Source: Amoebophrya sp. A120 (taxonomy: Eukaryota > Protista > Dinoflagellata). Taken from it: DNA of 64,000 bases. The translations under genes were made by a program, and so were the position numbers. Shown here in pieces: positions 29,256-56,000 of the stretch; the stretch's first letter is position 1; the number at the start of each line of letters is the position of its first letter. The notes beneath the pieces were generated by a model. That model searched no databases. It worked only from the letters and a program-made list of their open reading frames with translations, and was not told the DNA's origin. The stretch is from contig CAJINV010000003.1 in NCBI GenBank assembly GCA_905178155.1, positions 5,857,985 through 5,921,984 on the forward strand. The letters are read 5' to 3'.

Positions 29256-32200
29256 TCAATACAAATTGAATTTTCTCGTGTTGTTATGCATGAAGTTCGC
29301 AAGAAAAAGAAAAACTACTACCTTCTGCCCAGTGTGTATCACGAGAAAAAAGTGTTACAGTTACACATTTGTTGGAGTTTCTGCATCACAAATTTTCTCT
29401 GTGTGGCAGAGAAAACTTGTAATGCGAAGATCATAATCGAAAACAGGAAGAAAACGAGGCTCCAAAGCATTTCCTGCATGAGAAAGGTTGTCTGTGATGC
29501 CAGTTTTGCAACACAAGGCGTAACTGTAACACTTTTTTCTTGCGATAGTGTGTGACTCCCGAAGTTGATGGTCCCGGCTCATCTGCAGGGACGAGCCCAC
29601 AGCTATCAAAAGGAAAAATCCCCCCTCCCCATATTGACAAGGCACGTTTTCGGAAATTTGTGTTGCTGATTTGTAGCCACAGATCGTTTCTGTGTTGCAC
29701 GACGGCAACCCCACAGGCTCCGCCGCATTCTACAGGTGGTTTGTCATGCTGTTGACCTACAGCGTAGACGTCTGTCATGCTAAGCGCCTAGGCCAAAACG
29801 TATCTACTCAGGCTTAGCATGGGCCTGGAGTCCTCGCCAGCAAGACAAATCGGATTTGTGTACGCAAATCCAGCATGAGAAACTTCGTTTTGATATGGGG
29901 AGGGGGGTGGATTTTTCATTCTGATAACAGCACCTTTGGAGCCGCGATCAGCATTGCTACCGCCCTGCTGCGGTGGACCACCCGAGCTGCCACTGCCAGT
30001 GACTGCCGCCACAAAGTTAGGGGGAAATGCAGGAGGGACAGGAAACGGTGGGGGACCCTTGCCCCCAGGAGCGGATCCGGTCATCATGCTACTTCCGCCC
30101 CTCGGAGGGGGTGCGATCATGGGCGTCCCGGCTGCAACACCGGTAGTTCCACCGCTTGCTGGCACCATCATATTACTACCGTTGCTGCCTTTATTGGTGC
30201 CACCCGAATTATTGTTGTACGGTGCCGGCGGGGGCGTCAAATGGACCGGCGGCGGCAGCAGGGGTGCGGGCCGTTGCACGTCGTTGAGCAGGTCGAGGGC
30301 GGGTAGTTCGGGAGGCGGGGTTCCTTTTTGTGGAATACCTCCGGAGCTGGTGGTCTTGCCGGCGGAGCTACGATGCGACGGCGTTGGGCCACCGCTGGGT
30401 GCGTTGTTCATGGATGTCATGTTGGATAAAGCCGCACCAGCGCTACTACTGTTGTACATTCCACTGCCCGGCTGCTGCATTTGTGCGGATGTCGAAATGC
30501 TGCTGCTATTGCTTTTCCCCGCCGACGAGGAACCAGCGCTGGATGCATTGTTGCCACCTCCCTTGGATGAAGAAAGGCCTCTAGTATTGTTGCCTCCACC
30601 GGCGGTGCTTCCCGGGCTCGGAGCTGGGGTGCCGGGTGCGCCGGGGGACGGGGCGGGGCGTGTGGGTGCTAGGTTCGGTGGTCCTTTGTTGCTGGTCATG
30701 TTGTGCTGGACATTGCTCATGCTAGTACTGTAGTTGCTGGAGGATGCATTATTGTTGGACGAGGACCCGCCAGCGCCACCCTGCTGCAGCTGTTGCTGTG
30801 CGTTGTTGCTTGATCCGCCCTTATTTGGGGTGTTGCTTTGCTGCGTGGGTGCTGGCGCAGGAGGGTAGCTGTACCCGCTGTTTGGTCGTTCCGGCGCGAG
30901 GATGGATTGCGGTCCACCGTGGGCCTGGCTGGGAGTTCCGTGAAAACTCATCTGGTTCGGATAATGGTTGTTGGGATGCACGTTGTTCCCTCCTGGTGCC
31001 GGAGCACCCATCGAAGTTGGCACGCCCGTACTTCCATGTGGTCCACTGCTACCTCCGTAGTGACCGGAGGACGGGTGATGCTGCTGATGGGGTGGTTGGG
31101 GGCCAGGACCACCCTTGCCACCATGCATGCTGCCCATACCAGGAGCACAACTACCCGCACTGGGGCCCCCCGCACCGGCGCCGGTGCCCGAGGGCCCGGA
31201 TGCCGAGCTGTTTTGATTCAGCACCGGAGGGTATGGGGGCGGTGGCATCTCGGAAATAGACTTCCCGCCTGCTTTACCACCGCACTGCTGCGGCGCTGCG
31301 AGATGTTGACTATTGGGTCCCCCGGGATGCTGGTGCTGCAGGTGCTGTGGATGTTGGTCTAGCGCACCCGTTCCGGCTCCAGGTGGACCGGTCCCCGGGT
31401 GCAGTTGCAGGCCCGGATTGTATGCTCCCTGCTGGTGGTTCAGATTGTGGCTCGAGGGTTGGTACGAGCATCCCGGGGACGGGGTTAGGCCCTTGCTCGC
31501 GGGCTGCGAAGAGGACGCGCCGGCTGGAGCAGGATTGAACATGTCGTAGGGTCCGCTCGATTTGCTATTCGTGTGGCTCGCTGGAGACGGACCGCTCTTC
31601 ATACTGTGCTGAGGAGGGCCGTTGTCCATGTTGCTACCCATTCCTGGCGCCATGCTGCCAAGCGCGCCACCTTTTCCATCCGATCGCTGCAGGTCCAAGC
31701 CGGGAGGTTGCGAACACGAATTGAACCTGGTTTGCGAGAGAAAGTCACGATAAAGCACGAAATCGAAGCATTCTAAGCAGTGTGGCGCACACACGGAGCT
31801 ACCTGCAGGCACGAGCACAGTTCCTGCGAAGAGTGCTGTGCGCGCAGAAGGATGCTGCCAGCGGGCTTAGTGAAAAGCAAAAGAGTAGATTGATATACGT
31901 AGCTAAAGACATACGTCTTTTCTTACCCTCCCATCGACTTGCCCATCATCCCTTTTCCATCTGCGATCATTGGGCCCTTCCCCGCGCCTGTCTTAGACAT
32001 GTCGGTATTGCTGCTGTCTGCAGTTCCGGATCTGGAAAGACATAATTTGGCGGGAAAACTTTTCACATGAAGATGGTGAAAAAAGCACTTCTCAGTTCTC
32101 GTGTGGCTTAGGTAGGATAATCGAAGAAAACAATAAAACCGCAAGAACAGGGTAACAAGGAACTTAGACGTGACCGGGGGGGTCACGTCCGTCCGTCCGG

Positions 32201-35200
32201 CCGGACGGACGGCACGTGACCGGGGGCAGTCCGGCCTCGGGGCGAGTTCGGCGCTCCTGAATGCCGCAGCAACTGTGGCCCTCGGTAGCTAGAAGTCCCC
32301 GGCCGCGTCACCGACGGCGGACCAGCGGCAAGAGCCGCGCCTTTTTCCGTTTTTCCGTGAAAGACCGAACTCATGACCTTTTTTTTTTAGTTGGGCGCCC
32401 GAGCTAGGTAGCTGACACCCCCCGGCCGCGTGACCGGGGGCGGAGCGTGACGAAGAAGGCAGTTCTTCAGTGAAGTGCCGAGCTCATGACCTTTTTTTTT
32501 TTTTTTTAGTTGCCCGGCCGCGCGGTCCACCGCAGCCACCTCCACCTCCTCCACCACGACCGACCCCCGGTCACGTCACGTGCCGTCCGTCCGGCCGGCC
32601 GGACGGACGTGACCCCCCCGGTCACGTCTAGGTTCCTTGTTACCTTGTTCCAATAGTCAATGAAAACCGAGACTCCACGTGGTCATGTGGCAAGATGTCA
32701 ACATCTAAATTGTGATCGTATTCGTACCCGCCTCCGCCTGCCGATAATGCGTATTGCTGGTTGTTCGCTGAGCCCGACATGGGCATATTGTGATGCTGGA
32801 ACATGGATGAGTTCGAGTTGTCAACACCTACACCACCCGAGTTATTGGGCGGTAGCGACGAGGACTGGTGCTGCTGCGCCTGCCCATCCCGTGCGGTAGG
32901 GACGACGGAGTGCGCTGACTGCGATTTCTTTTTTTTCGCTTTAGAGGGGACCGGGCTCGCGCGGTACAGCTCCACGGCAGAAATGGAGCAGCAGTTGTGG
33001 TCCTCGGTGTAGAACGGCGTCTGGCTGTAGTCGTTTGGCCCTAACACAAACCAGCAGTCGTGTCGGGGGACCTGGAAGGTGCGCAGGTAGTGGCCATGGT
33101 ACGGCAGCGTGGGCTCGCCGTCGGCCGCCCGCTCAATCTGGTCCTTTTCGTCCTGCAACACAAACAGCATGCTGTGGTCCTTGTTCTTCAAAATGCCCAT
33201 CAACCGCTTCAGATATTCCTTCTGTTTCACAGATCCACCATCGTCTTCCACGAACTAGTGTATTTTCAGTTGGTCAGTATTTCTGTTTCATGAGCAGGGT
33301 CGTGGTTCTGATGCACACGCAGTTCTATCCTTGCTATTGTTGGATCGTGACCTACTCTCTCATATCGACACACCGGAATAACACGATATCACAAAACAGA
33401 GACTTCTTCTGAGAGCAACAAAAAGTATCACGGTGGACGAGACAACACTGTAGATGAAGAGCTCCAGCATAGAAAATGGCAGTACCGCCTGCACGCCAAG
33501 GACGGAAGAGAAGGTAAAGAGCGCGAAGATGTCGGGCCTGTCTTCCAGTGTGTTCTCGGCGTCTTGCAGCGTTCGATGGATAATCAGATGGACCTCGCTA
33601 CCGCTGTTCAACAAAGCTTTTTGCAGCTCCAGGATTTTGTCGGTGTCGTTGCAACGCTCCGAGCTGAGGACTACTGCGCTCAACATCTGCACACTCTTAC
33701 GCCGTGCAGCCGCAGCGGTGAGCATCTGTTTTCAATTTGATTTTTGATCATGAACCCGGCAGCAGGACGGAAAGCCAATGTGAATATCATAGATATCCAT
33801 GTGGGTCTCGCCGGTACCAGACAAAAGAGAAGAAAGAAAAAAATCGTCGGTTGTTCTTGTCGTGCAGTTCTTTATTTCTTAGCAGTACGTCGCACACATA
33901 CTAACTTATAAAATTCTATACCAATTGTTTGATTTTGGCAACGATCTCAGACATGCGGTAAACATCATCGTGCTGTTCTGCATCCATGTCTGGGCCCCCG
34001 CTCCTTTTACTCCATACGGAAGATCCACCACCTGGGTTGTTATTCGTGTAGCCTTTGGTGCCGTTGGCCGCCAGGCCGCTGTTTTCCTGACTGCCTTGGG
34101 GTCCTTTCGCTCCGCCTCCGCCTTTGGAGCCGTTCATAGATGTTGCAGGGGCGCCACCTCCGACAGAGTGGTGAAACGGCGGCTGCTGCGAACCACCTTG
34201 AGCAGGACCGCCCTTGCTCTGATGGTGCTGGTCCGGCAGCATGCCCGGAGGAGGATTCATATTGGCGCTTTGCTGTTGGTGCCCGCCTCCGCCGACAGGA
34301 CCACCGGGATCGCCGCCCGTGGGACCTTTGCCACCTCCTCCGGGGCCGGGGGCAGGTGCCTGACCCGACATTGCGGCGCTCCTACCGCTATGCACTGCAA
34401 AAGTATCGCACTAGTACATATCGCATGACAAATTTCCCCCAGCATCATCATCATCATTGAGACGAACCCCCTGTGGTCGTCCTCACGGTGTCGTCTTGGC
34501 CCGAGGCTGTTTCGGACAGATGTTGGCTGTGCCCGGCAAGAGGACGGCTCTGCGTGGGCAAATGTTGGCAATGTCCAGCAAGGACGCTTCCGTGGCCCCA
34601 TTTTCTGCCGGTTTTTTGCTTTCGCCAGGATTACCCGCAACACCACCCGCGGACAGTGAAACCCATGGCAGGCTTTCGCCAGGCGGTCCCGGGGAGGGAG
34701 GCCCTCCTCTTGGCACAATGTCGGTTAGATACCAATTTGCTCTCCCCGGAAGCGAGGCGAGCCTCTCCTATGTTGGTGCAAAGCACGAGTGGGGTCGTCG
34801 GCTCGGGCGAGTAGTTGGGGGGGCTACTCGGGGGGCACCGGGACTGTTCGACGAACTACTGCCGGATATGAAAAGTTTCTGGGTCTAAAATGAAATTTGT
34901 AATGCGGATTTAACTTTTGTGATGCATAAATGCGATTAGTACGAGTACGATAGTACTTTTGCAGTGCATAACCGCGCGGATCGAAGCCTCCCGGTGGCGG
35001 TGGATGCGTGCCGTAGGGCGGCTGCGGGTCTGGGTCGAAAGTAGGATTAGTGGTGTTGCAGCTACCTCCTGAATTTGCCAAAGGTGGTGGTCCACCACCT
35101 CCGTGCTGCATTGGACCACCTCCACTTGTTCCTCCGTAGTGCGGCGGTAATGGTAATCCTCCTCCGCCGCTCGAGTTGCTGTGCATGAAAGTACCGTGCT

Positions 35201-38200
35201 GCTGCTGCATAGGATGTGGCTGCGGTTGCATGATGAGCCCACCTCCTCCGTTGCAGGGGCCCCCGGCTCCTCCTTTCATTCCTCCCTGCTGCGGATTGCT
35301 CCCTCCAGGAGCCATATTGTTCATACCCATGCCGGGCGGGGGTTCGGGCATCAGGCCGCTGTTTCCGTAGTGCTGCGGTGGGGGTCCCCCGGGTCCCCCC
35401 GGTGCGCCGCCCCCATACGCGCTGCTGTTCATCGGCAGGTAGTTGTTGCGGTGCTGGTTGTTCATCATGTTGTTGCCGCCGTCGGGGCTCGGGTAACTGT
35501 TGCTCTTCGGCCCCATGCCGGGCGGGATGGAGCAGCCCGGTGCCGCCCCCCCGCGCGAACCGATCTCGACTCGCGGCGCGCTGCTCGGATGCTGGTGGTG
35601 GTCGTAGTGGAACGGATCGTTGTTTCCATTTGATGAACCTACGCCCATCGGGTTGTTTGATGAATTTTGTTGGTGGTTGTACGAGTTATTGAACATCCCT
35701 GGTGGCATAGAAGAAGGACCTCCTGGTGGACCACCGCCTCCCGCAGGCGGGGATCCTCCCATGGGATGTTGCTGATGCTGCATACCCGGCGGCGGGTTTA
35801 AGTTCATGCCACCATGCTGCTGAAAATTATTACTGTTGAGGGAGCTGCTGCTGCACATTGGGCCACCACCTGTGCCTGGGTTGCTGGTGCTGTTCATTCC
35901 GTGCTGGTGGTGCGCTATCGGACTGCTGTTGCTGGACCCGGGGCCGCTCGGTCCTCCACCTCCTGGCCCGCCCATCGCTGGTCCACCTCCCATATTGCCC
36001 ATGCCCGGTGGGGGTTGATGGCCTTGCTTGCCGCCCGGACCAGGCCCATTCAGCATCTGGTACTGCGGCGGCTGCATGTTGCTATTGTTGAATGGCGGTG
36101 GCGGCCCTCGTGGTCCACCCTGCAGGTTGTGCTGCTGCTGTTGATCCATCAGCATACTGCCAGTCGTGGTGCTGCAGTTACTGTTCATCATGCTGTTGTT
36201 CTGCGCCCCTCCACCACCTGCTCCCATGTTGCCACCTGGTCCACTACTTCCCTGGTTGTAAGAACTATTGTTCCCTCCCCCTGTAGGTGGGGGCGGCGCT
36301 TGGTGCTGCTTGTCCATCAGACAAGACATGCCGTTATTAGTGGTGTTACTGCCAGGGTGTGCAGCTTGTCCTCCTGGCTGGTGCCCACCTGGTGGCGGAC
36401 CGCCGAACATCCCCGACATGGGACCACCTCCGCTGCTCGGATGGTGCCCGAACCCGAGCGGTCCTGGCTGTTGTCCACCTGGTGCAGCTCCATTGAGCTG
36501 CTTATTCATCGGCCCACCTGCTCCGCCCAGCGGGCCTCCTCCAAGGTGGCCCTGCCCACCGCCCTTGGTCAGCGGAAGGTTATTGTTGTTACTTCCGCCC
36601 ATCATCATGCCGGGAGGTGGTCCAACGCCCGGGCTTGGACCCCCACCAGGTCCGCCGCCCAGACTGTGATTGCCCAGCGGCCCGCCCATTGACGTATTGT
36701 TCATCAGCATCCGGTTGTTCATGCCGTTCGAGGTTGCACCAGTCCCGCCCATAGTGCTGGTCGTCGAAGGGGTCATCATCATACTCGGAGTGGGAGGCAG
36801 CATGCCTTTCTGCACGAGGGACTCGTCTGTCTCCGCGTGTACGCACAGGCCCTTCCCCTTCCCCTGCCGTTGACGCCGATCGATTTCGTCGTCCCAATCC
36901 TTGTTCCGCCGGGGGTTGCGCCGCTCCTTACGCAACTTCATACTGAGGAAAACCTGAGAATTAATTTTTGTTCGATAGGTGCGTGGTTTCTCTCTCTAGT
37001 TAATAGTAGTTGCAGCCTCAATCTGAATCTTCACAGAAGTCGTGCTGTCCTATTTTGACTACGTTCGTTAAGAAAGCTTAGCATCTATTATGTGCGAAAA
37101 GTAGTGCAGCTTGAGGACGGAGACGACGTGTTTCACGCAGGGCAACAACGAGAATGCAGAGTAGAAGCCTTTTTACCATCAGTGCATAATAAGCGTCGTC
37201 CGCAGCTTTCCGGATTTGCGCACCGGTTAAGAGGTCTAGCTCCCAGTCCGAGTTCTCGACTTCTTCTGCCACCTGCAGTGCTCGCCCCTTTCGGCAGTGG
37301 CCCAACCCATACTCGGCGCAGTACCTAGTGTCAGCAATCAGGATGAATATTTTTCTCGTGAGCATGTTGCATGTCTTCGTGTTCGTAGTGGTAGCTTTTT
37401 GTAGTGGTAGAGGTACTAGAACTAGACATTTGGAAGATTTATTACTCCATCTCATTAGCATCACCGTAGGCGGGAAAGGATGAAGAAGTATAGAACAAGA
37501 CGCGGTGGCGGAGATTACGACGAGTGAAAAATTCGCAGGGAGGCGACCTTACAGCAGCATTAATTTCTTACCAAAGAAACTCGTCGTCGTCCGGAAGCTC
37601 GGGTTCAACCTTTTCGCCGTTGCGTTCTTTCAGGTTGTCTTTGGACCACTTCCGACACTCTTCGAGACCTTTTGGCGTGTTCTCAAAGGTTTTCTGCATG
37701 CGTTGGTTGATGTTCTTCAACACCAACTCACTCCCCAGGACGCACTTGGCCACTTTCTTGTCGCGGATGCATTGCACCACGTAGTCCGGGAGTCTGGGAA
37801 TTCACGTTAATTGAGATGACGAAAGGAAACCTCTCATGAAAATACAAAAAAAGGGTTATCTTATGGTGTGAATCACCTCCCCACGCATCACCTCCCCACC
37901 TCCCTACCTCCCCACCCTGGGGAGGTGCCTCCCCACGTGTGGGGAGGTACCTCCCCAGTAGTGGGGAGGTGGGGAGGTACTTCCCCATCTCCCCACCTCC
38001 CAGTCCTCCAGCACTTTCCCACTGCGTTGCACTTCCCCGTGATGGTCGACCAGAACGTGACTACGTCTGGATGCTTGCTGCTTGGCTTCTGTGCCATCGA
38101 TCTACCTCGCGGCCATGAAGCCAGGTATCTGCCACAACGCACATGAGCCCTCATCCTGCATGACAGATCCGTCTAAGTACGCGGCCACCCACCAGATGGC

Positions 38201-39435
38201 GGCCGGCGGCCCTAAGGTGGCGAACATGGAACGACTCACGGGGCACGCAAGGCAATGCCGCAAGGAGTCAAGGCGCGGGAACACGACGGGGGCAAAGAGC
38301 GCACAACATAAGGACCTAGGAGGGGCGGAGGCAAAACAGTGGCTCGCAAGGGCGGAGAGGGGGGAAAGCGCACGAGGCGAAGAACAGAATCGGCCGTCGC
38401 GCCGGCTGGCCTCGACGACCCTAAACCCCGAACCCTAAACCCAGACCCAAACAACCAAGGCCGCAGCCGGCTCTGCTTCTGCATCACCTCCGGCCGTTGC
38501 GGTGGTGATGCGCCCGCATCACGAGGTGATGCGGGGGAGGTGGGTAGGTGATCCGGGTGGGGGGGTGATGCGTGGGGAGGTGATTCAAAGGGGTGGGGAG
38601 GTGATTCACACTCCTACCCAAAAAAAGGGAGCTGCACTGAGTCAAAAATCTCCTGTACGCGCCTTGTAAATACATGCTTGCATGTTTGGGCGGGATGGTC
38701 TTGAGCTAATAGCAATGAACAAAGGTGGACGAGCCACTACAGAAGTTTCTATCTTGTTGCTCCATCTCTACTACGTCCATGACGAGCGGCACTACATCAA
38801 AAAAAAAGCGTCTACATTACAACTTGTACCTGGTATCCTTGTGTGTGCGGAAGATGTAGACCGTTTTCGGAGTGGCAATCACCAGCGCCGCGACGAGGTT
38901 GATTTTTTTCTTTCCCTGGCCCGGATGCTCCAGGTTCCACTTGAGGCCGAGCCCCACGTGGAGCTCCTCGCGGAGCCGCTTCTCGATGGATGTAAGCTTG
39001 TCGCATTGCCCCTCTTCAACCGTGTGAACCTCGACCGCGTAGGCCGGGTTACGCTCGTACGGGTTACTGAAAAGATGGGCTTGCTGCTCCTCGCGTGCAC
39101 TGCAAATATGTCTCGGTCTGGAATAAAAGGTGGACTTGTAATATTGCTCGTCTCGCATTCCTGTAAATAAATGCACGACCAACAATATGAAAAGCGCGAC
39201 CTTTTGCATTATGCATGAAAACTTCAGTTTCAACAGTTTGTGATGCTCGCTACGCATGAAAGAGCACCCAAAATAGTTCCTGTGCTTAGCTGCATTAAGA
39301 AAGCTGTTCAATTATGACCGTGCAGCATCACAAGTTTCCAGACCCAGACATATTTGCAATGCATACCTCGAGTGCCACCCAGTCCGGAATGTCCTCCTGT
39401 TTCACATTTGTCGCCTTGTAGCCGCCGACGTTCAT
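29256..39435 (-). CDS. ~2,000-aa protein: N-terminal degenerate DEDDy 3'-5' exonuclease domain, two large G/P/M/N/Q prion-like regions and a central globular domain; at least 12 exons, 3' end unresolved
   Basis: Frame is continuous from ATG 39435 after removing introner 39090-39366, GT-AG introns 37794-38829, 37325-37571 and 36954-37176, introner 34389-34970, GT-AG introns 33726-33921, 33255-33485, 32032-32667 and 31727-31926, and introners 29604-29926 and 29337-29547. Exonuclease-like motifs are VGLGLKW, LPDYVVQCIRDKKVAK and SDWELDLLTGAQIRKAADDA. Confidence 0.75.
29337..29547. mobile_element. Introner I1 (211 bp)
   Basis: TIR TATC(AC/GC)RAGAAAAAAGTGTTACAGTTAC, 26/28 match. TSD GTGTG (29332-36/29548-52). 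Lies near the 3' end of the giant gene, where the downstream frame is short, so its intron role is less certain than its TE structure. Confidence 0.85.
29604..29926. mobile_element. Introner I2 (323 bp), family C
   Basis: TIR TATCAAAAGGAAAAATCCCCCCTCCCCATAT (imperfect). TSD ACAGC (29599-603/29927-31). Removal joins SKGAV|GSSLQMSR in frame. Confidence 0.9.
32145..32650. mobile_element. MITE (506 bp) within intron 32032-32667
   Basis: ~80-bp TIR GAACARGGTAACAAGGAAC.TAGACGTGACCG..., 3-bp TSD CAA, and internal duplicated CTCATGACC(T)nAGTTG blocks. Confidence 0.9.
34389..34970. mobile_element. Introner I3 (582 bp)
   Basis: TIR TATGCACTGCAAAAGTA plus an imperfect extension. TSD ACCGC (34384-88/34971-75). 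Removal joins FDPRG|RSAAMSG in frame. Confidence 0.92.
37853..38619. mobile_element. MITE (767 bp) with CACCTCCCCA subterminal repeats, within intron 37794-38829
   Basis: IR GTGTGAATCACCTCCCCAC (37866-84) / GTGGGGAGGTGATTCACAC (38593-611). GGGT...ACCC ends are flanked by A7 on both sides. Confidence 0.85.
39094..39365. mobile_element. Introner I4 (272 bp), family A; can be spliced as a GT-AG intron 39090-39366
   Basis: TIR TATGCATTGCAAATATGTCTGGGTCTGGAA, with the left end mutated to CGTGCACTG.... TSD CCTCG (39089-93/39366-70). Joins DWVALE|EQQAHL. Confidence 0.9.
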
Positions 39436-40928
39436 CGTTCCCAAGGGGAGGCTGACGGCCACGTCCCTTTAATATTTCGTGCCTTATTTGCAACGAAAAT
39501 CGACACCGTCTGTGTATCCGGTTGGCACAGGCAGTCCTTTCGCGAGGGAGTCGTCGCGCACGGCGAAAGTAAATAATCTAGAAAGATTTATCAGGAGTCG
39601 GATGGACCGTGTGAGGCATTCACTACCGCGGTGCGTGATCCGGGTTGTCAACGCAATACTGCTTCTGTGCCCGCCCAGGAAGGCGTAGGTGTGACCCCGG
39701 TAGGGGGCGAGGAGAGCCCTTCGAGACCTATACCAAAGAAGGCTGGTTGCGCTTCATTTTTGGGTGGCAACGAGTAGCGTTGCCGGGTGCGGCGTCACGC
39801 ACCCAAAAATGCAACCCAACGAGCAACCAGCAACCAAGAATTGCAATTGCTCAATTGTTTTTGATGCAAATAACGAACTTTGGCCGATAAAAATACTTTC
39901 TCTAGAGTTGGAAGCAAACTCTTTCTGCGTGGTAACATAAAAGGTATTTAGGAATAGGAACGGGGATAGATCAAGGCCAGAATTCTCTACTGTGTGACGA
40001 GACGCAACACGAATTAACTTGTTCGATCAGATGGAAAATTTAGTGATGAAAATTACTTCCTCAAAACTCAAATCAGATTTACAGATTTGGATGACCACCA
40101 GACACTGCTGGACTTACTTTCTACCTTAAGCTTTACACACGAACCAACCAATCAAAAAAAGCGAGCAAAACCAATGACCTGTTCGATCTCTTCTATCGAC
40201 GAACTTTTACTTACAAAGTTTGCTCGCAGCCGCGGCCAGATTGAATGCAGAGTAAGTAGCTCTATCACGATCCAAGCCCTGGGTGGAAAAATAAAGGAAA
40301 AAAAAATACTGTGACATAGTGGAAACAACTCGTGCGCCAAGAGGATACACACTAACGAGAACGTATGCGTTCCATTTTGACCGGCCTTGGAAAACAGGCC
40401 GGTAAATTAGGTCTAATCTTTTCTAGATCCCGACTTACATGATAGCTCTGACGTGTAATATAACATCTGGAATAACGGATCTTCACGCTGCAGAGAACTG
40501 ACCTGCTATCTGTGTGTGTCACGATAGCGATACTTTTTATATCATTGCGGATCCATCCTCGTTAAAGAAACAATCAGCCACAAGCACAAGCTGCAGCTTT
40601 GCGAATGTAAAATTTGAATCTCAACGTCCGGTCTTGCAAAGCAGATGTAACCAGTTTTTATGTGTCAGTTTCTTCTCGTTATCCGACGGTTTCCACATTG
40701 CTTGTTTTTTTCGGCTTCAAAGAATATCGTCGGCTTTTATTCTCCACGGAAGCATCGACTTGGTACGAATACAATTCCTGTCAACGTTCATTGTGAATGA
40801 ATCCCTGTCCCAATCTTGCCGGAAATAAACAGAGAAGTAGTCATTTAATCTAATGTCGTTGTTGTATTTTCTTTATCGATTGTTCGAGCTCAAGATAAAA
40901 AAAGAGCGTGAACTTCATTGTCCTCGAA

Positions 40929-42007
40929 GCTTGTCGAGGCGCAACTACATTGTCCTCGAAAAAGGAGCACAATCCGGATGAAAAAGGTGAACATCGGAGC
41001 CGGGAGGAGCCTATGCGACCCCTAGGGGGGCGGGCGTACTTAAACGCTCCGGCAATCTCTATTCCTTGTTCCTGACGGCCACATCAAGGCGATTCTCGCT
41101 GCTAGCGCCGTGTTGCTCGATTTTGCCGCGAAGTACCGGCACACATCGGTCACAAGCTACTAACCTGTAGGTGATGCGGTCGGGGGGCATCCTGCGCTTC
41201 CGCGGATGCTTTGCGCCCTCCTCGTCTGCCCAGCTTCTTTGACAGAAGAGGAGGGGCGCTGCAATGCTCTCCCGTCTGGGCTTGCATTCCTCACAAAGGC
41301 CGGCGCGATGCGGAAGACAGATAGAAGACAAGCTACTAATGATAACGGGGCCCCCGGCTAAGCCGGTGCCACCGCGCACAGCACTCCAGCCACGCGGGCG
41401 AAGAACTGGGGCAGCTCCTGGCTTCCTCTTGCTGGTTCTCGGCAGTCGCGGCCCTGCATGCCGAAAGCGCCTGCGCTTGGCGTGCGTCCCTTTTGTTGCA
41501 GTGGCCGCGTGCTCTGACGCGCCACCTGCGCCTCAGGGTTGCGCCGTTGCGCCTGGTGCTTGCGAGCGCTGAGGGGCGCGCGCGGTAGCTAGCTAGCTGC
41601 TGGCCAACCTAACTGCATTGAGACCCGCACCCAGAAGCCGGGGCCGGGTGCGTTTAGCTTCCCTGCGGGAGGCAGGTTGCGTATCGCTCACTGTCTTCCG
41701 CTACGTGGTCGTCTATGCGAAGAGACGTTTGCACGAGCTGCGAGCTCGTGCTAGGCGCCCCTCCCTACAAGGCGAGGCTTTTTGTTCTAAACGACTAGCA
41801 TCCGATAGCTTCGTCCCTTCCCTACAAGGGCGGGCTGTTCGTTAGCAAGACGGACAGACTTTCCGTGTCCGAAGTCTGTGCTATGATGTAGTTCGCAGCC
41901 GAACAATTGACTACCTGCTGGCAGCCCCCCTTCCCTGCAAGGGCGGGGGCACGAGGCTTGTCGAGGCGCAACTACATTGTCCTCGAAAAAGGAGCACAAT
42001 CCGGATG
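40929..42007. repeat. Perfect 52-bp direct repeats (40929-40980, 41956-42007) flanking a GC-rich ~975-bp segment
   Basis: GCTTGTCGAGGCGCAACTACATTGTCCTCGAAAAAGGAGCACAATCCGGATG is present twice. The interior has three CC(C/T)TCCCT(A/G)CAAGG motifs. Confidence 0.85.
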
Positions 42008-42217
42008 GTGTGCAACTGCTTTGTCGAGCAGATGCAGAAGCCTTGTCATTATTTTTATGTTTGTCCAACTATTTTCTTTTTGACCCAGCAGTAAGAATCA
42101 CCGGCGAAGTCTCGATGTCATTTAATGATGTTGAGTTCCTCTTTCTGCAGGACCTTGTGTCTGGTTAACTTTAACCGCCGCCCCGTGCTCTTTATCAGCT
42201 CAGCACTTGTCGTGTTT

Positions 42218-44624
42218 TTAAGAATATTCCGTAGTATTTGAGCCGCCTGGGCTTGGACTTCTGAAGTTCCGCGACTTCCGGGGACTCGTGAGCGAGTACA
42301 CGGCCGGCGCCACCGCGGTAGAGCGGCGCTCCCGATGGGTCAGCATTTCGCCAACTTGATCGAAGTTTCCGTAGTCCGGATGAGCTTTCACCTGTAGGTA
42401 CTTTGTTGTCCCGGCGAACTGGGGGGGAACACGGAGTTGTGCTACCCCAGGCGACTTCTCCTGCCCCTGGTATTGATGTGAAGACGAGTTGTTGGTACCA
42501 GGCACAGGCGCGTCGAGGAGCCGTTTGTTGGGTGGTGCGGGTCGTGCGGTGGCCAGAACTCCGAAGTGACTGCTACCACTTTTTTTCCTCCGCCGACGCC
42601 CATGATGTTGAGCAGGGTGGTCGTGGCCAGAGCCAGCGACCGCACTGGACACCTCAGATTGTTCGGAGGTTCTACTCGATCGTTCTCTTCGGTTGTACTT
42701 CTGGGATGATGTTCTTGCGTGGCCACAGTCTTTGTCTTGCTCCTTCTCGCTCGCACTCGCGTTTTTCGACGCATACGAAATTCGACTGGACTATGGCGTT
42801 CTCAACTGTTACATTCTCAACTGTTACATGGATTTGTCATGCAAAATGACCATGAGCCACCAGACAATGAAGCTGCTTCGCATGACAAATTCTCGGAGGG
42901 GTAAACAGCATCTAAATCCGTGCCAAATTTGTGATGCAAGACTTGCAAGCTTGCCCCTTTTCCTATTGCTGTTTTAGCATGACAAATTCATGTAACAGTT
43001 GAGAATGTAACAGTTGAGAGCGCCATATGGACCGCGACAACTTGCGGCCACCACGATCCAGGAAATTACGCGCCGTGGTCGAGTATCAAATGTAAAAATG
43101 TCTGGGTCTGGAAGAGTCATGCAGTTTCTGCATGACACAGAAGGTCTGGCATGGCAGCTCTAGCATCACAGGTTTTGAGAAGCTTCCGCAATGCCGAACC
43201 CGCATGACAAATCCCCCATTTTGGTGACAGAAAGTGGGCAGCTTTTGCTACCTATGCATGAGAGATTTTTGTGTGTTCTGAAATGCGCATCACAAATTAC
43301 ATCCTTCCAGACCCAGACATATTTGCATTTGATAGCGAGTTCCTTCGAGGAGTCAATGGGACAAAAACTTGTTCATCTCCATTGTCATTTGCGTTCCTCC
43401 GCACCTCCGGGCGAGGAAGTTGTACATTCTGATTCGTCCTCTCGCCCCTTTGGAGGTGCTCCTGCTGCGTCGAGGAGACCGAGCTTCTTCGTGCCTCTTT
43501 CATCTTTGCCTTCATCAAAGAACTACTACTCTTGCGCCGATGCAGCCGATCCGCTTCGTCTCGCATTCTTCGCGCTTCCTCCGCCTCCGCTTGCTGGATT
43601 TTCTGCAGCTTCTTCTGCCGCCGCCGTTGCACAAGACCCGTCAGAAACAGGGACCCGATGATCAACCCCGACATACATCCGAAGGGGATAAAGAAGTTTT
43701 TCATGCTATCCTATGTAAAAACGTCGTTACCCTTTTTACCCGATTGTCATGCTAAACAAATTAGAATATAGAATTACTAATGCTAATGCAGCTGCACACT
43801 TTGCCCCTTGGCAGTGCATGAACCAAGTCGATTTGTGATGCGGCTGCACCAGCCAAGCACGGCTACACTACCGACTCAAGGTTCTCATGGGCAACAGAAA
43901 AAGGTCAGTTTATTTACTTATTTACACAGGATACATGCCAACTTCCCAGTCTTGCGTAGCCTTCAGAGTGTATACCTCGTGCTTCCACAAGTTTCGCCAC
44001 ATCTGGTAGGGCCTATGAGAGTGCACAACTCTTCCACCTCATTCGAGACGCATAACCAGCAAGAGAGACAGTGCCACAAAGCGAGTAGCCTCGGAAACAC
44101 AAATTCAAATTTGGACACAGATGATCCTATATATTCGTAGTACTGTGTAAACGGGGGTCGGTTCCCGAAACTTGTCATGCGAAGACCTGTGCTGTACAGT
44201 GTGCTTTTGCAGAGTAAACGAGCAGGGGGACGAGGGGGGTTGTCGTTCGTTGTGCAATCGGATAGGGTAGCGGAGAGAGTTTGTCTCGTTCTGACCGGAG
44301 CCACTTCGTGTCCAGGAAAAAACTGTCCTTGATAGCCGAGGTAACGGGGTCCATAAACAGGAGCCGGAGCTGGCGCACGCCGTGGTCGTCGGGTTCGGTA
44401 CTTTCAAGGGTTTCGAAAACACGTTGCTCCTCGGAGTCGCCCTCCACCGCCGGCGCCAGGCCCGACAGTGTGTTCACGGGTGCTCCTGGAACTGCCGGAA
44501 GATGCATCTGCGACGCATTCATCTTTCCTTTTGTTTTCGGCGGGAAAGTAGAACGAGTGGAGGTGAAAGCCAGCACTGCGCGCGTGAACAGAGCTTGGAT
44601 CAGAATTGCTCCACTGTAAACCAT
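42218..44624 (-). CDS. Hypothetical single-pass membrane protein interrupted by at least three introners; 5' exons uncertain
   Basis: Removing I7, I6 and I5 gives one frame: ...YQMWRNLWKHEVYTLKATQDWEVGMKNFFIPFG(TM)...RRNSTTARNF...LSRSSRISY...NTTEYS*. A signal-like N-terminus starts at 44624. Joins between 44030 and 44270 are not resolved. Confidence 0.65.
42792..43027. mobile_element. Introner I5 (236 bp)
   Basis: ~51-bp TIR TATGGCG.TCTCAACTGTTACATTCTCAACTGTTACATG.ATTTGTCATGC with 2 mismatches. TSD TGGAC (42787-91/43028-32). Confidence 0.93.
43084..43334. mobile_element. Introner I6 (251 bp), family A
   Basis: 31-bp TIR TATCAAATGYAAAWATGTCTGGGTCTGGAAG, 29/31 match. TSD TCGAG/GCGAG. In-frame removal. 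Confidence 0.92.
43707..43933. mobile_element. Introner I7 (227 bp)
   Basis: TIR TATCCTRTGTAAA, 12/13 match. TSD CATGC (43702-06/43934-38). In-frame removal. Confidence 0.88.
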
Positions 44625-44939
44625 CGTCTTACCGCGGCTCGCTTTTTGCTTGTGCACCCTGTCTGCCTTTAGTGTCACTCGCACGAAAAATCCCGGCGGC
44701 CCAGTTGGTCGACCTCAAGATTAGTGTATTTCATCTTTCAGTAGTGTTGATCTACTGCTTCGATGGCACGAAAATCGTGTTTTTGGAGTTCAGCAATAAA
44801 TCAATTCAATGGTAGGAGCCTGCTGCATGATATTAAGGATCGTGATCTTCATCGAAAAGGAAGATCATCATGGGCGGTAAACTTGCTTAGCGCTGTGTAA
44901 TTCACAAGTACTATTCCGATCATATTGACGCATTTTCTT

Positions 44940-47611
44940 TTACGCTTTATGGCCTTTTGAAGATTCTGTACCAGGACCGAGCCCGCTGGGGTACGCGGTT
45001 GTCGCCGGGGTCATCGTGCGGTTTCCCGACGACAATGCATGATCGGCCGCCACGGGCGTAGTCGCTCTGCTTGATGGCCGTGCGCGGGAAGCAGCAGGCG
45101 AGGTCGGATGCTGGTAGGAATGGCTTATCAATTGCTGCGCACGCAACTGCTGCAGCAGTCCCGGGTGGCGAAAACGTGCGTCGGTGGCCCGCTGCACGCA
45201 CAGGTGCAACGGTTCGTTGAGGAAGCAGCGCGTGCCCGAAGTGGAAACGGGACGGACCCCCACCGGCCCGTGCTTCGGCCTCGTCACGCTGAACACGTGC
45301 ACCTCGGCGATCTTCAACCGAGACCCTTCGCGCTATCAAAGTTAATAAAAAGGCCCTGCTTGTTTTTAGCGACCTCCCTGACTAAAGCTAAGTAGCAAGA
45401 AACAACTCGTCCACCCGACGGTGCAAATCCATGGGAAGATACTTACGAGCGAAGCGCTGTGTTGCAAATGACGAGAGGCGCAGGAGTGAAGAAGGCAGCA
45501 CAAGAACTTGTCACGTACACAGACAAACGACAGAAGTTGTAGCTGTCCCACCTAGATTCTAAAACTAGACCAACGGTATTAACGCGGCAGTGGTCCCTTT
45601 GTTGAATACAACATGTCCTCTGTATTGTTTGGATGTTGAAGCTTTCATCCAGTATGTTCTTGAGCTACCTTGCTGGTCGATTCTGATGACTGGGGCGGGG
45701 CACTTTTCCATCTTGGTATGTACATCAATATGTCCTGGTCCTCCTCCTCGTCGTCCTCCTGGTCTGGAGCTCCTCGTTTCACATCTTGATCGTCCTTCGC
45801 CGCCGGTGGTGCGCGCAGTAGTGCGTGTTTCACCTGGTCGGCCACACCCGGCTTTGCGCGCATTGGCGAAAAGTCGACACGCTGCCGAGGTTGAAAGGGC
45901 AGCCGCCGCTGCTCGCGCGCGTTCGATTCGCCGCGACCGTCTTGTTCGTAGGCTGTTCGGAAAGGCCGGTCTTGGAGTCGCATCATACCGGTGTGCACGT
46001 GCTTCTGCTGGCGGTGGAGCACATAGTGCTGCAAAAAGGGGCCGACGGCTTGCGTTACGATCGCCGATTCCATAAACTCGCGCACAGTCCCGAGTTTGAC
46101 GGTTTCATCGTGCTCATTCAAGAGGGTCTCTTGCTTGCCTGCCTTTGGGGTAGAAGTTGTTGTGCTTCTTCTACTAGCTCTTTTCCGAGATGAAGCTCTT
46201 GCAGCGCCACCACCACTACCCTCTGACGGAGCGGAATTCGCTGACGCAGCAGTGGGTTGCACTAGCGCCGACCCATCTCCGAGCTGATCGGGAGGAGAAG
46301 GTTGTAGTTCTTCTGCTCCAGGTGCCCCTCGCACAGCTTCCTCCCCTACAACTTCTCGCGGCTCTGTGGGGAGCGTTCCTGCTTCTGCCTCGTCGAGCGG
46401 GTGGAACTCTCCGTCGTGCGTGCCCGAGTAGAGAGGGAAAGTATTGCCCTGAAGATCGACGTAATGAAAGTGCCACGCAGACGGGTTTTCTCGGGTCACC
46501 TCCGGTGGGTTCGACGCCAGTTCCTCCCGGTCGATACTGGTGTCGGACCGGACGTCGTCGTCCCTCTCAAGGATCTTCTCCTCTTCCGGTTTCAGCTGCG
46601 CCCCGGAGCTCTTCCGGATGAGGAGTCCCCGTTTTATGCGGGCCTTGTGTTCGCGAGCCGACTGCCGTTCCGAACGGAGGACCTGTTCCTCCGGGCTCGG
46701 GGGCGCATAGAAATCGGTCCAGTCTGTACCCGGCTCGATGCTGTGGCCCAGCAGCCACGGCGGGTGGTCCCCGTCAGTCGTCAGTGGAGAACCGCTGCTT
46801 GTAGTTTTCTGCACGGAAGAACGGAACACCGGGTAATGAATATCCACGTCCGGAAATTTATACGTCTCCAGTGTCCGGCTCATCAGCCGCCCATTTTGCA
46901 CAGCAACCGTCCCGATCTTGCGGGTTAACCCGAGTGTCCAACAGAAAAAGTGGTGCGGTATGGTATGAGGCTATAGGATGTAAAATGTATATCAACAACA
47001 CTGGACGAAGATTGGCTTTCAAAAAGATGCCATTCATCTCGAGCCCGAATACATGAGAAGTTTGGTGTTTTGCAGGAGATGATGCAGCAGATGTTAGCAT
47101 GTACCTACATGCACACAATATTGATCCACCGAGCTACACAATTTTGCTGCGGGATACCGAGGTATGCAAGCCCGTATACATGCCGACTCACCACCGGCGC
47201 GTGGTTCGTCGGCAACTTCACTTTCCCCGTCACTGGGTCGACAGGAAGAACTGTTTTGTAACTCGTCGTGCCGGTTCGCTTCAGTAAGCCCTCGATGCTG
47301 CGGGGTTGTTGTTCGAGTTCGGCCCCTGGTATAATAATTGCCGTGGCGTTCGTTCCGCCGCGTGCTGAAGAGGAAGAGCCCTGCTCTCGTGAAGGAGCAA
47401 TCGCACGTTCTGCGCCAGACCTGCCCCCACGTGATCTTCGACTTCCGGTGGAGGGTCGGCCTCTGCCCCGGTTCACTGCGGGACTCGAGGCCCCACCTGC
47501 AAACCAAATCGACGAGGAAGATGAACTGAGGCAGAATACGGGTGGGAGAAAACCCAAAAAGCCCGAACCATGCACCGAGAAAAGAAACAAAAAACGGAGT
47601 ACCATCCTCAT
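44940..47611 (-). CDS. Hypothetical protein with signal-peptide-like N-terminus; exons ~47611-47117, 46916-45719, 45328-44940
   Basis: Three - strand ORFs can be joined by a GT-AG intron 46917-47116 and the degenerate introner I8. No domain recognised. Confidence 0.55.
45334..45718. mobile_element. Degenerate introner candidate I8 (385 bp)
   Basis: Ends TATCAAAGTTAATAAAAAGGCC and (rc) TACCAAGATGGAAAAGTGCC. Flanks CGCGC/TGTAC differ only by transitions. Removing 390 nt joins two ORFs in frame. Confidence 0.45.
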
Positions 47612-53082: not shown

Positions 53083-56000
53083 CTAGCCTCCTTCGAGTTC
53101 CGCATTTATCTGAGCAAGGGTAGCCGGCTGCGCAGGTTGCAGAAACGGCTCGCTACAGTGTTCACGGTGTTCCGCAACGTGAGTAACCATATTCGACAGC
53201 CATTGTCTGACCTGCAGTTGAATCACGGTCAGCTGAAGCAACTCGCTCCCCATGCTATTTAGATCGCGGAGAAGGCGGTTCCCCCATGGGTGCGCAGGTG
53301 TATAGTAGGTCGCAGCGGTGGGCGAAGAAGATGCGTTGCTTTCGCCTCTATCTGGACTCTGTAGCGGAGTTGCACTTGCGGCTAGCTGATCTACGAAGTG
53401 CGGATTCTGTGCCACTTCGAGTAGCGATTGCCGGAACCGTGTTTGCATCGTGTCGAAAGCCCTGGCGAAGATTCTCTTCATGTTTTCGCCAGATATCACT
53501 TTCAGCAGTACTCGGTACATGCTACTTACATCCTTGACGAGCGCTGCACACACATCGTGTGGCGCAGGCGGTAGTGCCGTTTCAGCATTTGCAGTGGTAG
53601 AAGAAGCTCCACCGCCTGCGATATTAGTAGCAACTGTGTCATCTGACTGCTGCTCTACCTCTGTTACAACTGTTGCAGAACTCCCGCGCGCTCTACTGGT
53701 ACCGACCTTTACAGCTCCGCGATCCGAATCCTCGGCTTGTGTGGAGGTAGTGTCTGGATCGTCGCCTTCTACTGTTGGGTCACCCCGAGCAGGTGCCGTA
53801 CCTTCGTCTACTTCTTGGTTCCCGTCTGCTGCTTTTTCCTTTATTTCTACTGCGGCTGCGCCCTCGGTGGCGAGAGCTTCGCTTCTACCGCTTTGCTCGG
53901 CCGCAAGAGCAGTTTCCACCTGTGCCGTCAGGGGACTACTTGATGTCGCCGCCGCGAGAAGTAGCTGCGGTGGCAAGGCCGGGTGTGGTGTGGAGAACAG
54001 CGCCTTGGCGTGCACGTCGTATCGCATTTCCAGGATCTCCGACAGTTTTCCCAGAAGCTTTTGGTGGTGGTCTTCGAAGTCGCCAACCGTTTTTCCGAAA
54101 TCAGCCAGCAGCGCCATTCGTGTCCGGTTTACAATCGACGCTGCAGCGGAGGTTGTTATACTAGCAGGCTGCTGCAGTGCGGGTGCTCCGGCGGTGGGCG
54201 TCACCACAGACGAGGATGACGAACTACTTGAGGGCCTCTCGAGAATCAGGCACTTTTGCAGCTGCTCTTGAAGTTTCGGAACCAATGCCATGTACATCCC
54301 GCACGTCTGGCTGCATAATGCAATGTTGGTCGCGGTCACTTTCTTTAATACCTGATTTTGATATAGAAAAGATAAAGATTTAAAAAAAAGATTTGCACGA
54401 TGAAACGAAACTAGGAATAGTGCAGATTTGCAGGCCTGCAAGTTGACACTTTGCCAGTAGTAGAAAACGAAATTTATATATATACCTTGTTGGTTTTTGC
54501 TTCTCCGAACAACACAAGCTGCTGCATTTGCCGATTGAAAAGTTTGAAGAGATGGGTGAGCCGCTGCACTGCTTCGACGGCAACGCTTTGCAGCGCGCGG
54601 CAGAGCTGCAGGTATTCCTGTGCGATTTTAAGCATCATCAGCGCACTGGGAACCACCAGGAAGTGGCTCTTCTCCACTTTCAAAAACTTCTCAGAGTGCT
54701 GGCTCTCTTGCTCCAGATGCTGTTGTCGTGCGGGTACGGACGGTGTTTGCTGATCGGCGGAAGAAGCAGCGCCGTTACCAGCACCCTGAGTGGCTGAAGC
54801 AGGATTGATGTTCGCGGTATCAGCAATACCAAGTATGCGCTTTTCGGCCTCAGATACCTCCGGTGTTGTTGTCACGGTTTCACCGCCCTCGTGAAAGGAC
54901 TGCAACATTTGTTGAACCTCGGCGGCATCCGGCATCATGGCGGGCGGTGCGGCAGGTTTGTGCGGTGCATCTTCTGGTCGTACGGGGGCAACACTACTCG
55001 GCGCTGTTGAAACAGTACTCGCTGCTCGGGGCGAAAACTCTACTTCCTCGGTTTCGCCGGCCAAAAACCGAACGTAGGCCCGGTGCTCCTTGGTTGCGTC
55101 GCAGCGTTCCCACCGCTCTTATCAAAAGTAAAAGTGTCTGGGTCTGGAAACTTGTGATGCTGGGTGGCGTCTCATGATGAGGCTACAAATGCTGGCTCAG
55201 CATGACAAGTTTCTGAGCTCCTAGGTGTTGCCTATTCTGCATGACAGACTGCGCTTCTGCATCACAGAAAAACGGAGCTCTTGGGTAACGTGCATGACAG
55301 ATTTAAGAATCATGCCAGACAAGCATGACAGACATGAATTCTTCCAGACCCAGACATTTTTACAGTTGATAGCTCTTCAGCTAAAACCATCTGCACGTGC
55401 GCGACCTTGCGGTGGTGAAACTCTTCCACGTATCGAAAGGAAAAATCCCCCCTCCCCATATCAAAACGGAGTTTCTGTGTACACGAATCAGGTTTGTATT
55501 GCGGAGAGGCATTGCGGCCAGATCCCCGGGCTAGGTAGGGGCGTATGGGTCTAGTTGTTCAGCACGGCAAACGGCTCCCCTTTAGGCCCAACAGCATGAC
55601 AAATCGCCTCCATAATGGGGCGGAAGCTTCTGCCCTTGTCTTCTTGCAAAACAAATGTGATTTGTGACCTCAAATCAGCAACACAAATTTTCGGAAACAT
55701 AGCTTTTCGATATGGGGAGGGGGGATTTTTCCTTTTGATACCACGATTGCCTTCGATTGGGTGTACAGAATCGCACGAAGGCTCGCTGCGACGTCCACTA
55801 TTTTCTTGCTCACGACTGCTGCACTTACACTTACAGCCGCTTGAGGAGGTACTATCGTGATGTCCTCGACAGGTGCATTTTTTGAGCTGGTTCCCCTCTT
55901 ACTGTCTACCGCTTCGGAGCTCGAAGACACTGATGATGAAGCACTGCTGCTGCTGCCGTCAACTTTCATTTCTTGTGCCAAAACAGTTGCTTGTTGCGCA

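What the first reader, a model, noticed from the sequence alone, without database searches (positions are those of the whole stretch)
29604..55740. The same introner family sits in both orientations relative to transcription
Seen: I2 (29604-29926) and I10 (55431-55740) are homologous beyond the TIR. GAAA(A)TTTGTGTTGCTGATTT lies near the left end of I2 and its reverse complement near the right end of I10, and the CATATCAAAACG.AGTTTCT..GTACAC.AATC block shows the opposite pattern. Both host genes are on the - strand, so the two pre-mRNAs carry opposite strands of the element, yet both must be removed to keep the frame. Inference: removal is orientation-independent and relies on the symmetric TIR stem rather than on polar donor, branch and acceptor signals.
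Basis: partly seen in the sequence, partly recalled or inferred. Interest (0 to 1): 0.8.

Follow-up and report, generated by a model that had tools for sequence, protein, structure and literature searches.

The report
Transposon introns spliced in either orientation
Copies of one small transposon sit forwards in one gene and backwards in another gene of an Amoebophrya-type plankton parasite, and both are cleanly missing from assembled transcripts; the cell likely reads the element's mirror-image end sequence, not the usual GT-AG signals.

Summary
Observation confirmed. I2 matches the reverse complement of I10 end to end (interiors 67% identical, z 18.9). Both hosts are on the minus strand. Spliced contigs from one sample lack each element plus one 5-bp target duplication (I2 in 4 of 4 runs; I10 in one contig).

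In 51 loci of a related assembly this family sits in reading frames in both orientations (10:21), four times with both in one frame. Six other families are also mixed.

The 'stem instead of polar signals' reading is only partly supported. The stem is predicted in both orientations, but there is no G·U excess (116 vs 128 A·C), this family's arms do not covary, and weak stems are spliced. The cut is likely polar (one base before the element, four after), and either repeat arm gives N|UA, like this genome's G|GUA donors.

The elements match the published Amoebophrya A120 introners. Both-orientation introners are known elsewhere but recruit canonical-type sites from the target duplication; these do not. 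Earlier scan notes on other pieces of this genome reported the introners and the 1+4 cut; none of those shown gave an orientation tally.

The parts
29604..29926 (.). I2: 323-bp TAT...ATA TIR element (introner); the pre-mRNA carries its reverse complement, 'B' end first
   Evidence: removed with one TSD in 4 of 4 runs
29599..29603 (.). I2 left 5-bp TSD (right copy 29927-29931)
   Evidence: joint both=5
55431..55740 (.). I10: 310-bp member of the same family in the opposite orientation, 'A' end first in the pre-mRNA; TIR 37 nt, 95% complementary
   Evidence: missing from X2 record 9
55426..55430 (.). I10 left 5-bp TSD (right copy 55741-55745)
29017..39435 (-). I2 host gene: 1979-aa low-complexity protein, 8 canonical introns plus I1-I4; no Pfam hit in the two long exon frames scanned
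53083..59103 (-). I10 host gene: Vps54-like; carries I9 and I10. The part beyond 56156 was not joined by a listed contig.
   Evidence: Pfam PF07928; A25 homologue
29337..29547 (.). I1, 211-bp TAT...ATA element in coding sequence, removed
   Evidence: joint 29081->29547 with a 7-letter insert in 4 of 4 runs
34389..34970 (.). I3, 582-bp element, removed with one TSD
   Evidence: skip 587 in 4 of 4 runs
39094..39365 (.). I4, 272-bp element; 3' end decayed (ATA to ACG); reads GT..AG at the 1+4 register
   Evidence: skip 277 in 2 of 4 runs
42792..43027 (.). I5, 236-bp element, removed
   Evidence: X2 record 6 letter count; 502-aa frame
43084..43334 (.). I6, 251-bp element; its TSD copies differ at position 5 and the transcript keeps the downstream letter, so at least one base before the TIR is cut out
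   Evidence: X2 record 6 piece starts at 43336 with 52 letters between; inferred from coordinates
43707..43933 (.). I7, 227-bp element with a weak end duplex (-17 kcal/mol), removed
44014..44264 (.). I8, 251-bp element; its TSD copies differ at positions 1-2 and the transcript keeps the upstream letters, so at least two bases after the TIR are cut out
   Evidence: X2 record 6 piece 44263-44711 with no mismatch and 73 letters between; inferred from coordinates
46935..47156 (.). 222-bp element with a decayed 3' end (ACA) and the weakest end duplex (-14 kcal/mol), removed
   Evidence: X1 record 1, skip 227
55120..55371 (.). I9, 252-bp element, removed
   Evidence: X2 record 9

Best explanation
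I2 and I10 are opposite-orientation copies of one non-autonomous TIR transposon family of the Amoebophrya A120 introner type, both missing from spliced contigs together with one 5-bp duplication, and they are likely removed from pre-mRNA by a relaxed U2-type spliceosome that reads the TIR end sequence, which is the same on either strand. Steps: (1) shown: TAT-N7-AAAA ends, 5-bp TSD, no coding capacity, both orientations in reading frames. (2) Inferred from MITE biology: an unknown transposase inserts copies either way round. (3) Shown in contigs of one sample: element plus 5 nt is removed, with no fixed border dinucleotides. (4) Inferred: the cut has a fixed polar register, one base before the 5' arm and four after the 3' arm; two elements bound it to 2-4 TSD bases left in the upstream exon. 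At that register the 5' arm reads N|UAU, matching U+2 and A+3 of this genome's canonical donors. (5) Inferred: the 3' site is measured from the 3' arm (UUUU-N7-AUA). The long hairpin probably forms and may help bring the ends together, but shows no sign of being tuned. (6) Untested: spliceosome involvement and the lariat branch point.
For: Precise element+5 removal for 11 of 11 TAT-type elements found in 28.6-56.2 kb. The 5' logo equals the reverse-complement 3' logo over 150 host-oriented elements. Conserved positions behave as sequence: positions 11-13 are 95-98% complementary but 4-7 only 50-69% (positions 1-3 are inflated by my detector). 9 of 9 transcript-supported canonical introns begin G|GTA. 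All 6 sense GT-AG options fall at the 1+4 register, as does I4, whose 3' TIR end has decayed. At I2 an in-frame GT..AG alternative (331 nt) is not used. TSD letters are nearly free: at 1+4 the first base is G 56, C 39, A 33, T 22, and all 16 acceptor dinucleotides occur. The A120 paper reports nearly all spliceosomal proteins, no U1 detected and no U12 system (PMC7789003 section 10).
Against: No direct evidence for the spliceosome, a lariat or the exact cut sites; a register of 2, 3 or 4 fits the two informative elements. My idea that canonical 3' ends share A at -5 and -7 (6 of 9 in the window) failed on predicted introns (9 and 8 of 23, a noisy set recovering 3 of 7 known introns). A strong stem is predicted in 89% of 149 elements, so a threshold use of the stem would leave no G·U signal. 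2 of 8 families show arm covariation (p 0.0075 and 0.03). Transcript evidence is contigs from one sample, labelled RNA only by guess, and I10 rests on one contig. The tally comes from another assembly with no transcripts. This family leans 1:2.
Confidence: 0.55

Rival explanations
1. One reading: the paired TIR stem defines the intron, and the cuts are set by distance from the duplex, whatever its sequence.
For: Ends are predicted paired in both orientations (mean pair probability 0.74 sense, 0.75 antisense; I2 and I10 0.93). TSD letters are free. A hairpin role is also what PMC7789003 draws (sections 10-11). Families 1 and 6 show arm covariation.
Against: G·U 116 vs A·C 128 in the terminal 20 positions of 150 elements, sign test p 0.56. 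This family's arms pair no better within a copy than between copies (673 vs 673.7, p 0.62). Sense and antisense energies are equal (p 0.90, 0.45). Elements with -14 and -17 kcal/mol end duplexes are spliced. The commoner orientation of this family tends to carry A·C rather than G·U (19 vs 11 elements, not significant). The two strong non-TAT hairpins in the window lie only inside canonical introns.
Confidence: 0.2
2. A spliceosome-independent endonuclease-ligase, or a transposase-derived RNA-binding factor, cuts at both TIR ends and joins the exons, as suspected for euglenid nonconventional introns.
For: No dinucleotide rule at either border; no branch-like YTRAY enrichment near sense 3' ends (30 vs 39 antisense); U1 not detected in A120; euglenid TIR introns leave as circles (review PMC11282704 section 6).
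Against: The likely register reproduces U+2 and A+3 of canonical donors; I4 has become GT..AG at that register while losing its 3' ATA; G is slightly raised at exon -1 and intron +1 (57 and 56 of 150; p 0.04, 0.06).
Confidence: 0.13
3. The elements are cut out of DNA in the transcribing stage, like ciliate internal eliminated sequences (resemblance recalled), so orientation is irrelevant.
For: Element plus one TSD removal is what precise DNA excision would leave; contigs cannot tell RNA splicing from a rearranged template.
Against: The DNA-like run X5 carries the elements in continuous contigs at single-copy depth (43310-51588, depth 24) and spans the I9 and I10 junctions (its joint table was cut, 117 rows not shown). 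At I6 and I8 the junction mixes letters in a way consistent with one internal register.
Confidence: 0.05
4. Splicing needs polar signals in the element interior; one orientation is favoured and the other is spliced poorly or only with a lucky GT.
For: This family is 10:21 and family 5 is 2:8; family 8 is 0:4. The rarer orientation has G at +1 in 8 of 11 vs 6 of 22 copies (p 0.024).
Against: Both orientations are removed. Same-family pairs in one restored frame are opposite in 5 of 9 cases. The G association fades with relaxed calls (7/12 vs 10/25) and G is common beside the A end regardless (23 of 49). No 5-mer is strand-biased after multiple testing (best p 0.001 among 329).
Confidence: 0.07

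Closest known systems
Introner elements (IEs) of Amoebophrya sp. A120 (Farhat et al. 2021, PMC7789003; abstract, sections 10-12 and 16, passages, supplement passages read; figures not visible)
   Same: TAT + 7 nt + three or more A inverted-repeat ends, 3-5 nt direct repeats, about 240 nt, no transposase, no border dinucleotide rule, in exons alongside GT-AG introns; the best homologue of the host gene is from strain A25.
   Different: The text read says nothing on IE orientation relative to transcription ('orientation' hits concern gene order), gives no test of the hairpin, and calls splice positions relative to the hairpin variable.
Both-orientation introner classes of Polarella glacialis (Roy et al. 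preprint 10.1101/2020.10.14.339549, passages) and of Aureococcus/Micromonas (Huff et al. 2016, seen only through that preprint and review PMC10228655)
   Same: TIR/TSD DNA-transposon introns that form introns in either orientation, usually with a bias to one.
   Different: There the TSD must supply GT/GC/GA or AG (GHN6, AGGH, NNAGG), so orientation tolerance rests on canonical-type sites. Here TSD letters are nearly unconstrained.
Euglenid nonconventional introns (review PMC11282704 section 6)
   Same: TIR-paired ends, TSD-like repeats, non-canonical borders, MITE origin proposed, mechanism unknown.
   Different: They have a pyrimidine|purine border consensus and CAG/CTG pairing and leave as circles; none of that was shown here, and orientation is not discussed in that review.
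Fritillaria borealis non-canonical U2 introns (review; PMC13326754 search listing and one passage)
   Same: MITE-derived introns with TIR/TSD removed by a changed spliceosome.
   Different: They keep preferred dinucleotides (AG-AC, AG-AT) and a preceding exonic TAC; no such preference here.
Symmetrical stwintrons of Hypoxylaceae (PMC8469720, passages)
   Same: Introns with 45-55 nt terminal inverted repeats.
   Different: No TSD, canonical U2 signals, and functional only on the coding strand.

Membership tests
Amoebophrya A120 introner elements | Terminal inverted repeat starting TAT, seven variable bases, three or more A | tested here: met
   I2, I10 and the logo of 150 elements: A at positions 11-13 in 137-146 of 150
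Amoebophrya A120 introner elements | 3-5 nt direct repeat at the exon borders | tested here: met
   5-bp TSD at I2 and I10; both=5 at the joints
Amoebophrya A120 introner elements | Repeated family of non-canonical introns, removed from transcripts | tested here: met
   49 family copies; no GT-AG option at I2 or I10 within the TSD; missing from spliced contigs
Amoebophrya A120 introner elements | Host is Amoebophrya | tested here: met
   Top of 2 hits for the Vps54 piece is Amoebophrya sp. A25, 55% identical; the strain itself was not determined
MITE (non-autonomous TIR DNA transposon) | TIR, TSD, short, non-coding, high copy number | tested here: met
   element bins reach summed depth above 100,000 against about 25 for unique DNA in run X5
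MITE (non-autonomous TIR DNA transposon) | Cognate autonomous transposase | not testable with these tools
   No whole genome held; none found in A120
U2-type spliceosomal intron | GT/GC donor and AG acceptor | tested here: not met
   GY-AG possible in 10 of 150 sense and 9 of 150 antisense
U2-type spliceosomal intron | Branch point, lariat intermediate, snRNP dependence | not testable with these tools
   Contigs only; the YTRAY scan shows no sense enrichment
Polarella/Aureococcus both-orientation introners | Introns formed in either orientation | tested here: met
Polarella/Aureococcus both-orientation introners | TSD constrained to supply a canonical-type splice site | tested here: not met
   TSD composition close to flanking exon; 43 of 150 offer neither GT nor AG
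Euglenid nonconventional introns | Stable end-pairing structure | tested here: inconclusive
   Predicted in 89% of 149 elements, but no sign of selection on it
Euglenid nonconventional introns | Release as full-length circles | not testable with these tools
   No raw reads of this strain; X8 covers only about 32 nt of a TIR
Known self-splicing or structured RNA family | Rfam match | tested here: not met
   0 matches in 28600-56200 at gathering score

The most novel reading that the evidence does not exclude
Amoebophrya has a second, orientation-blind splicing route: a dedicated factor, possibly a domesticated transposase or a U1 replacement, recognises the transposon end motif on RNA and cuts at a fixed 1+4 register whatever the flanking letters. 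Any insertion, anywhere in an exon and either way round, would then be silent, which removes the usual selective filter on transposons in coding sequence.
Probability: 0.25. Interest if true: 0.85.

Novelty: new variant of a known kind. Interest (0 to 1): 0.5.

Why it matters
How Amoebophrya removes tens of thousands of non-GT-AG introns with no detected U1 is an open question (PMC7789003). Orientation independence confines the needed signal to the roughly 15-30 nt that read the same on both strands, and rules out interior polar signals as essential. The strand-asymmetry test (G·U vs A·C) separates hairpin from linear-motif models and currently gives the hairpin no support. That turns the question into a small set of minigene and lariat experiments. 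It would also explain how these elements reach such density in exons: neither orientation nor target sequence filters them. The elements themselves are published, so the gain is mechanistic focus, not a new system.

Tried and rejected
No whole genome was held and the contigs behind the loci could not be extended, so the tally is a sample, not genome-wide. The look-up of sequencing runs listed no holder on record as RNA; X1-X4 are treated as transcripts because they lack 9 canonical introns. Raw-read run X8 covered only about 32 nt of a TIR and was uninformative.

Rejected: chance similarity from the TIR alone (interior z 18.9); cryptic GT-AG splicing (unused 331-nt option at I2); A at -5/-7 as a shared 3' signal; a polar interior 5-mer or branch motif; a robust need for G at +1 in the rarer orientation. 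Mismatched TSDs in the loci gave no stop codon that could fix the register (22 cases). Pfam confirmed strand calls at only 3 of 35 loci (3 of 70 frames hit, all 3 on the called strand), so strand calls rest on the codon model (102 of 103 leave-one-gene-out chunks correct). 79 of 219 unique locus elements could not be oriented and were left out; I8 was missed by the detector and is not in the 150. Huff 2016 was not held; Henriet 2019 and the journal version of Roy 2023 were not read; the spreadsheets of PMC12130899 (13 files) and the Roy preprint's dataset were not seen and may hold orientation counts.
Full report
What is there. The window is eukaryotic DNA with GT-AG introns and, in its minus-strand genes, short TAT...ATA elements flanked by 5-bp duplications. 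I2 (29604-29926) and I10 (55431-55740) are two of 11 such elements found between 28.6 and 56.2 kb. The I10 host has a Vps54 domain, and its best homologue is from Amoebophrya sp. A25. The end grammar is the one published for strain A120 introners (PMC7789003 section 11).

Observation. I2(+) aligns with the reverse complement of I10 over the full length. With 40 nt removed from each end the identity is 164 of 246 columns, z 18.9, against z 4.5 in the same orientation. Both hosts are minus-strand: 9 of 9 canonical joints read GT..AG on that strand, and the restored Vps54 aligns to the A25 protein straight across the I10 and I9 junctions. So the two pre-mRNAs carry opposite strands of the element.

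Removal. Contigs of runs X1-X4 (one sample, one study; RNA by guess, but lacking the canonical introns) join 29598 to 29927 in 4 of 4 runs: element plus one TSD. I1 and I3 are removed in 4 of 4 runs and I4 in 2 of 4. In one search, X2 record 9 has exactly the 54 letters expected between 55114 and 55741 if I9 and I10 each leave one TSD. X2 record 6 and X1 record 1 give the same arithmetic for I5-I8 and the 46935 element. These seven are read from piece coordinates, because the joint table was cut. The DNA-like run X5 carries the elements in place. Retaining I10 adds an in-frame stop; retaining I2 changes only about the last 40 residues.

Tally. No genome was held. A scan with the family's TIR returned 51 loci, all from one other assembly (contigs JACKZZ01) that shares elements but no flanks with the window. 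I detected 238 elements, 227 unique, 219 of them in the loci. A codon model trained on window genes (102 of 103 held-out chunks correct) oriented 140 of the 219. The I2/I10 family has 49 copies with 978 consistent orientation edges. In the loci it is 10 I10-type to 21 I2-type (p 0.07, 95% interval 0.17-0.51); other families are 13:11, 11:7, 7:8, 4:5, 2:8 and 2:3, and one small family is 0:4. Relaxed strand calls give 12:25 (p 0.047). The search pattern favours one end type and 5' arms are slightly better conserved (192 vs 230 deviations), which could inflate this lean; bystander copies are 3:5. Independent of strand calls, same-family pairs inside one restored reading frame are opposite in 5 of 9 cases, 4 of them this family (L002, L011, L033, L050). 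Splicing in the loci is inferred from restored frames only.

Splice signals. Over 150 oriented elements (140 loci, 10 window) a GT-AG pair is available within the TSD in 6 sense and 7 antisense cases, and 43 offer neither a GT nor an AG. At I2 an in-frame 331-nt GT..AG alternative exists, with a GTG rather than GTA donor, and is not used. The 5' and 3' arm logos are mirror images. No 5-mer or YTRAY motif favours the sense strand.

Stem or linear motif. A G·U pair on one strand is an A·C mismatch on the other, so selection for an RNA stem should enrich G·U in the transcribed strand. It does not: 116 vs 128. Arms of this family pair no better within than between copies (673 vs 673.7); 2 of 8 families do covary, possibly from subfamily structure. 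Sense and antisense folding energies are equal, and two elements with weak end duplexes are spliced. The hairpin is nonetheless predicted in 89% of 149 elements, so it may act as a threshold aid. The conserved positions (TAT, G9, A11-14) fit a protein-binding motif, whether of a transposase on DNA, a splicing factor on RNA, or both; these data cannot separate the two.

Register. Two elements have unequal TSD copies. At I6 the contig keeps the downstream letter at position 5; at I8 it keeps the upstream letters at positions 1-2. If the register is fixed, 2-4 TSD bases stay in the upstream exon. With 4, the intron starts N|UAU, matching U+2 and A+3 of 9 of 9 canonical donors. All 6 GT-AG cases fall there, including I4, whose 3' TIR end has decayed. 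I noted this before seeing that earlier scan notes propose the same 1+4 cut; those notes are unchecked and are not counted as evidence. A matching 3' mimicry (A at -5 and -7) did not hold on predicted introns.

Mechanism. Most likely (0.55), a relaxed U2-type spliceosome reads the TIR end sequence, which is identical on either strand, and cuts at a polar fixed register. Stem-defined cutting (0.2), a non-spliceosomal route (0.13), interior polarity (0.07) and DNA excision (0.05) remain. Spliceosome involvement is untested.

Comparison and novelty. The elements are members of the published A120 introner class. Introners that work in both orientations are reported for Polarella and Aureococcus, but they recruit canonical-type sites from a constrained TSD. 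I found no statement on orientation of Amoebophrya IEs in the searches and passages; figures, the PMC12130899 spreadsheets, the Roy dataset and subscription papers were not seen. Verdict: a real, transcript-supported property of a known system that narrows an open mechanistic question; interest 0.5.

Noticed in passing
window 32145-32650 and about 37869-38587: Two TIR elements of a different grammar (76-nt arms 96% complementary; 32-nt arms, TGT...ACA-like ends) lie inside canonical introns, whereas all 11 TAT-type elements lie in coding sequence.
   Followed up: partly
window 39094-39365 and 46935-47156: Both elements have a decayed 3' ATA and both have G at +1 under the 1+4 register; I4 is fully GT..AG. 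They may be introners turning into ordinary introns.
   Followed up: partly
elements in window and L001-L051: The motif TGT(C/G)ATGC or its reverse occurs in 133 of 150 elements across unrelated families, about equally on both strands (173 vs 161); 25 of 37 window matches of the 7-nt core fall in nine elements. It is a likely transposase-binding site.
   Followed up: partly
L001:89-409 compared with L002:1456-1780: The two arm types of this family are swapped relative to the interior in L001, which could reflect inversion of the interior between the TIRs or conversion between arms.
   Followed up: no
L008, L013, L006, L041: The related assembly is far denser in these elements (10-12 per 6 kb, many exons of 40-100 nt) than the window, although the loci were picked by the element.
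   Followed up: no
window 29322-29336: A roughly 15-nt micro-exon lies between I1 and a canonical intron and is retained in all four runs.
   Followed up: yes
window 40925-40980 and 41952-42007: A 56-nt direct repeat (98%) flanks a GC-rich 970-bp stretch that is itself repetitive in run X5 (depth 88-137); possibly a solo LTR or another mobile element.
   Followed up: no
window 1-28600: No TAT-type element with a TSD passed the detector in the first 28 kb, so insertions are clustered; no reads were laid there.
   Followed up: no
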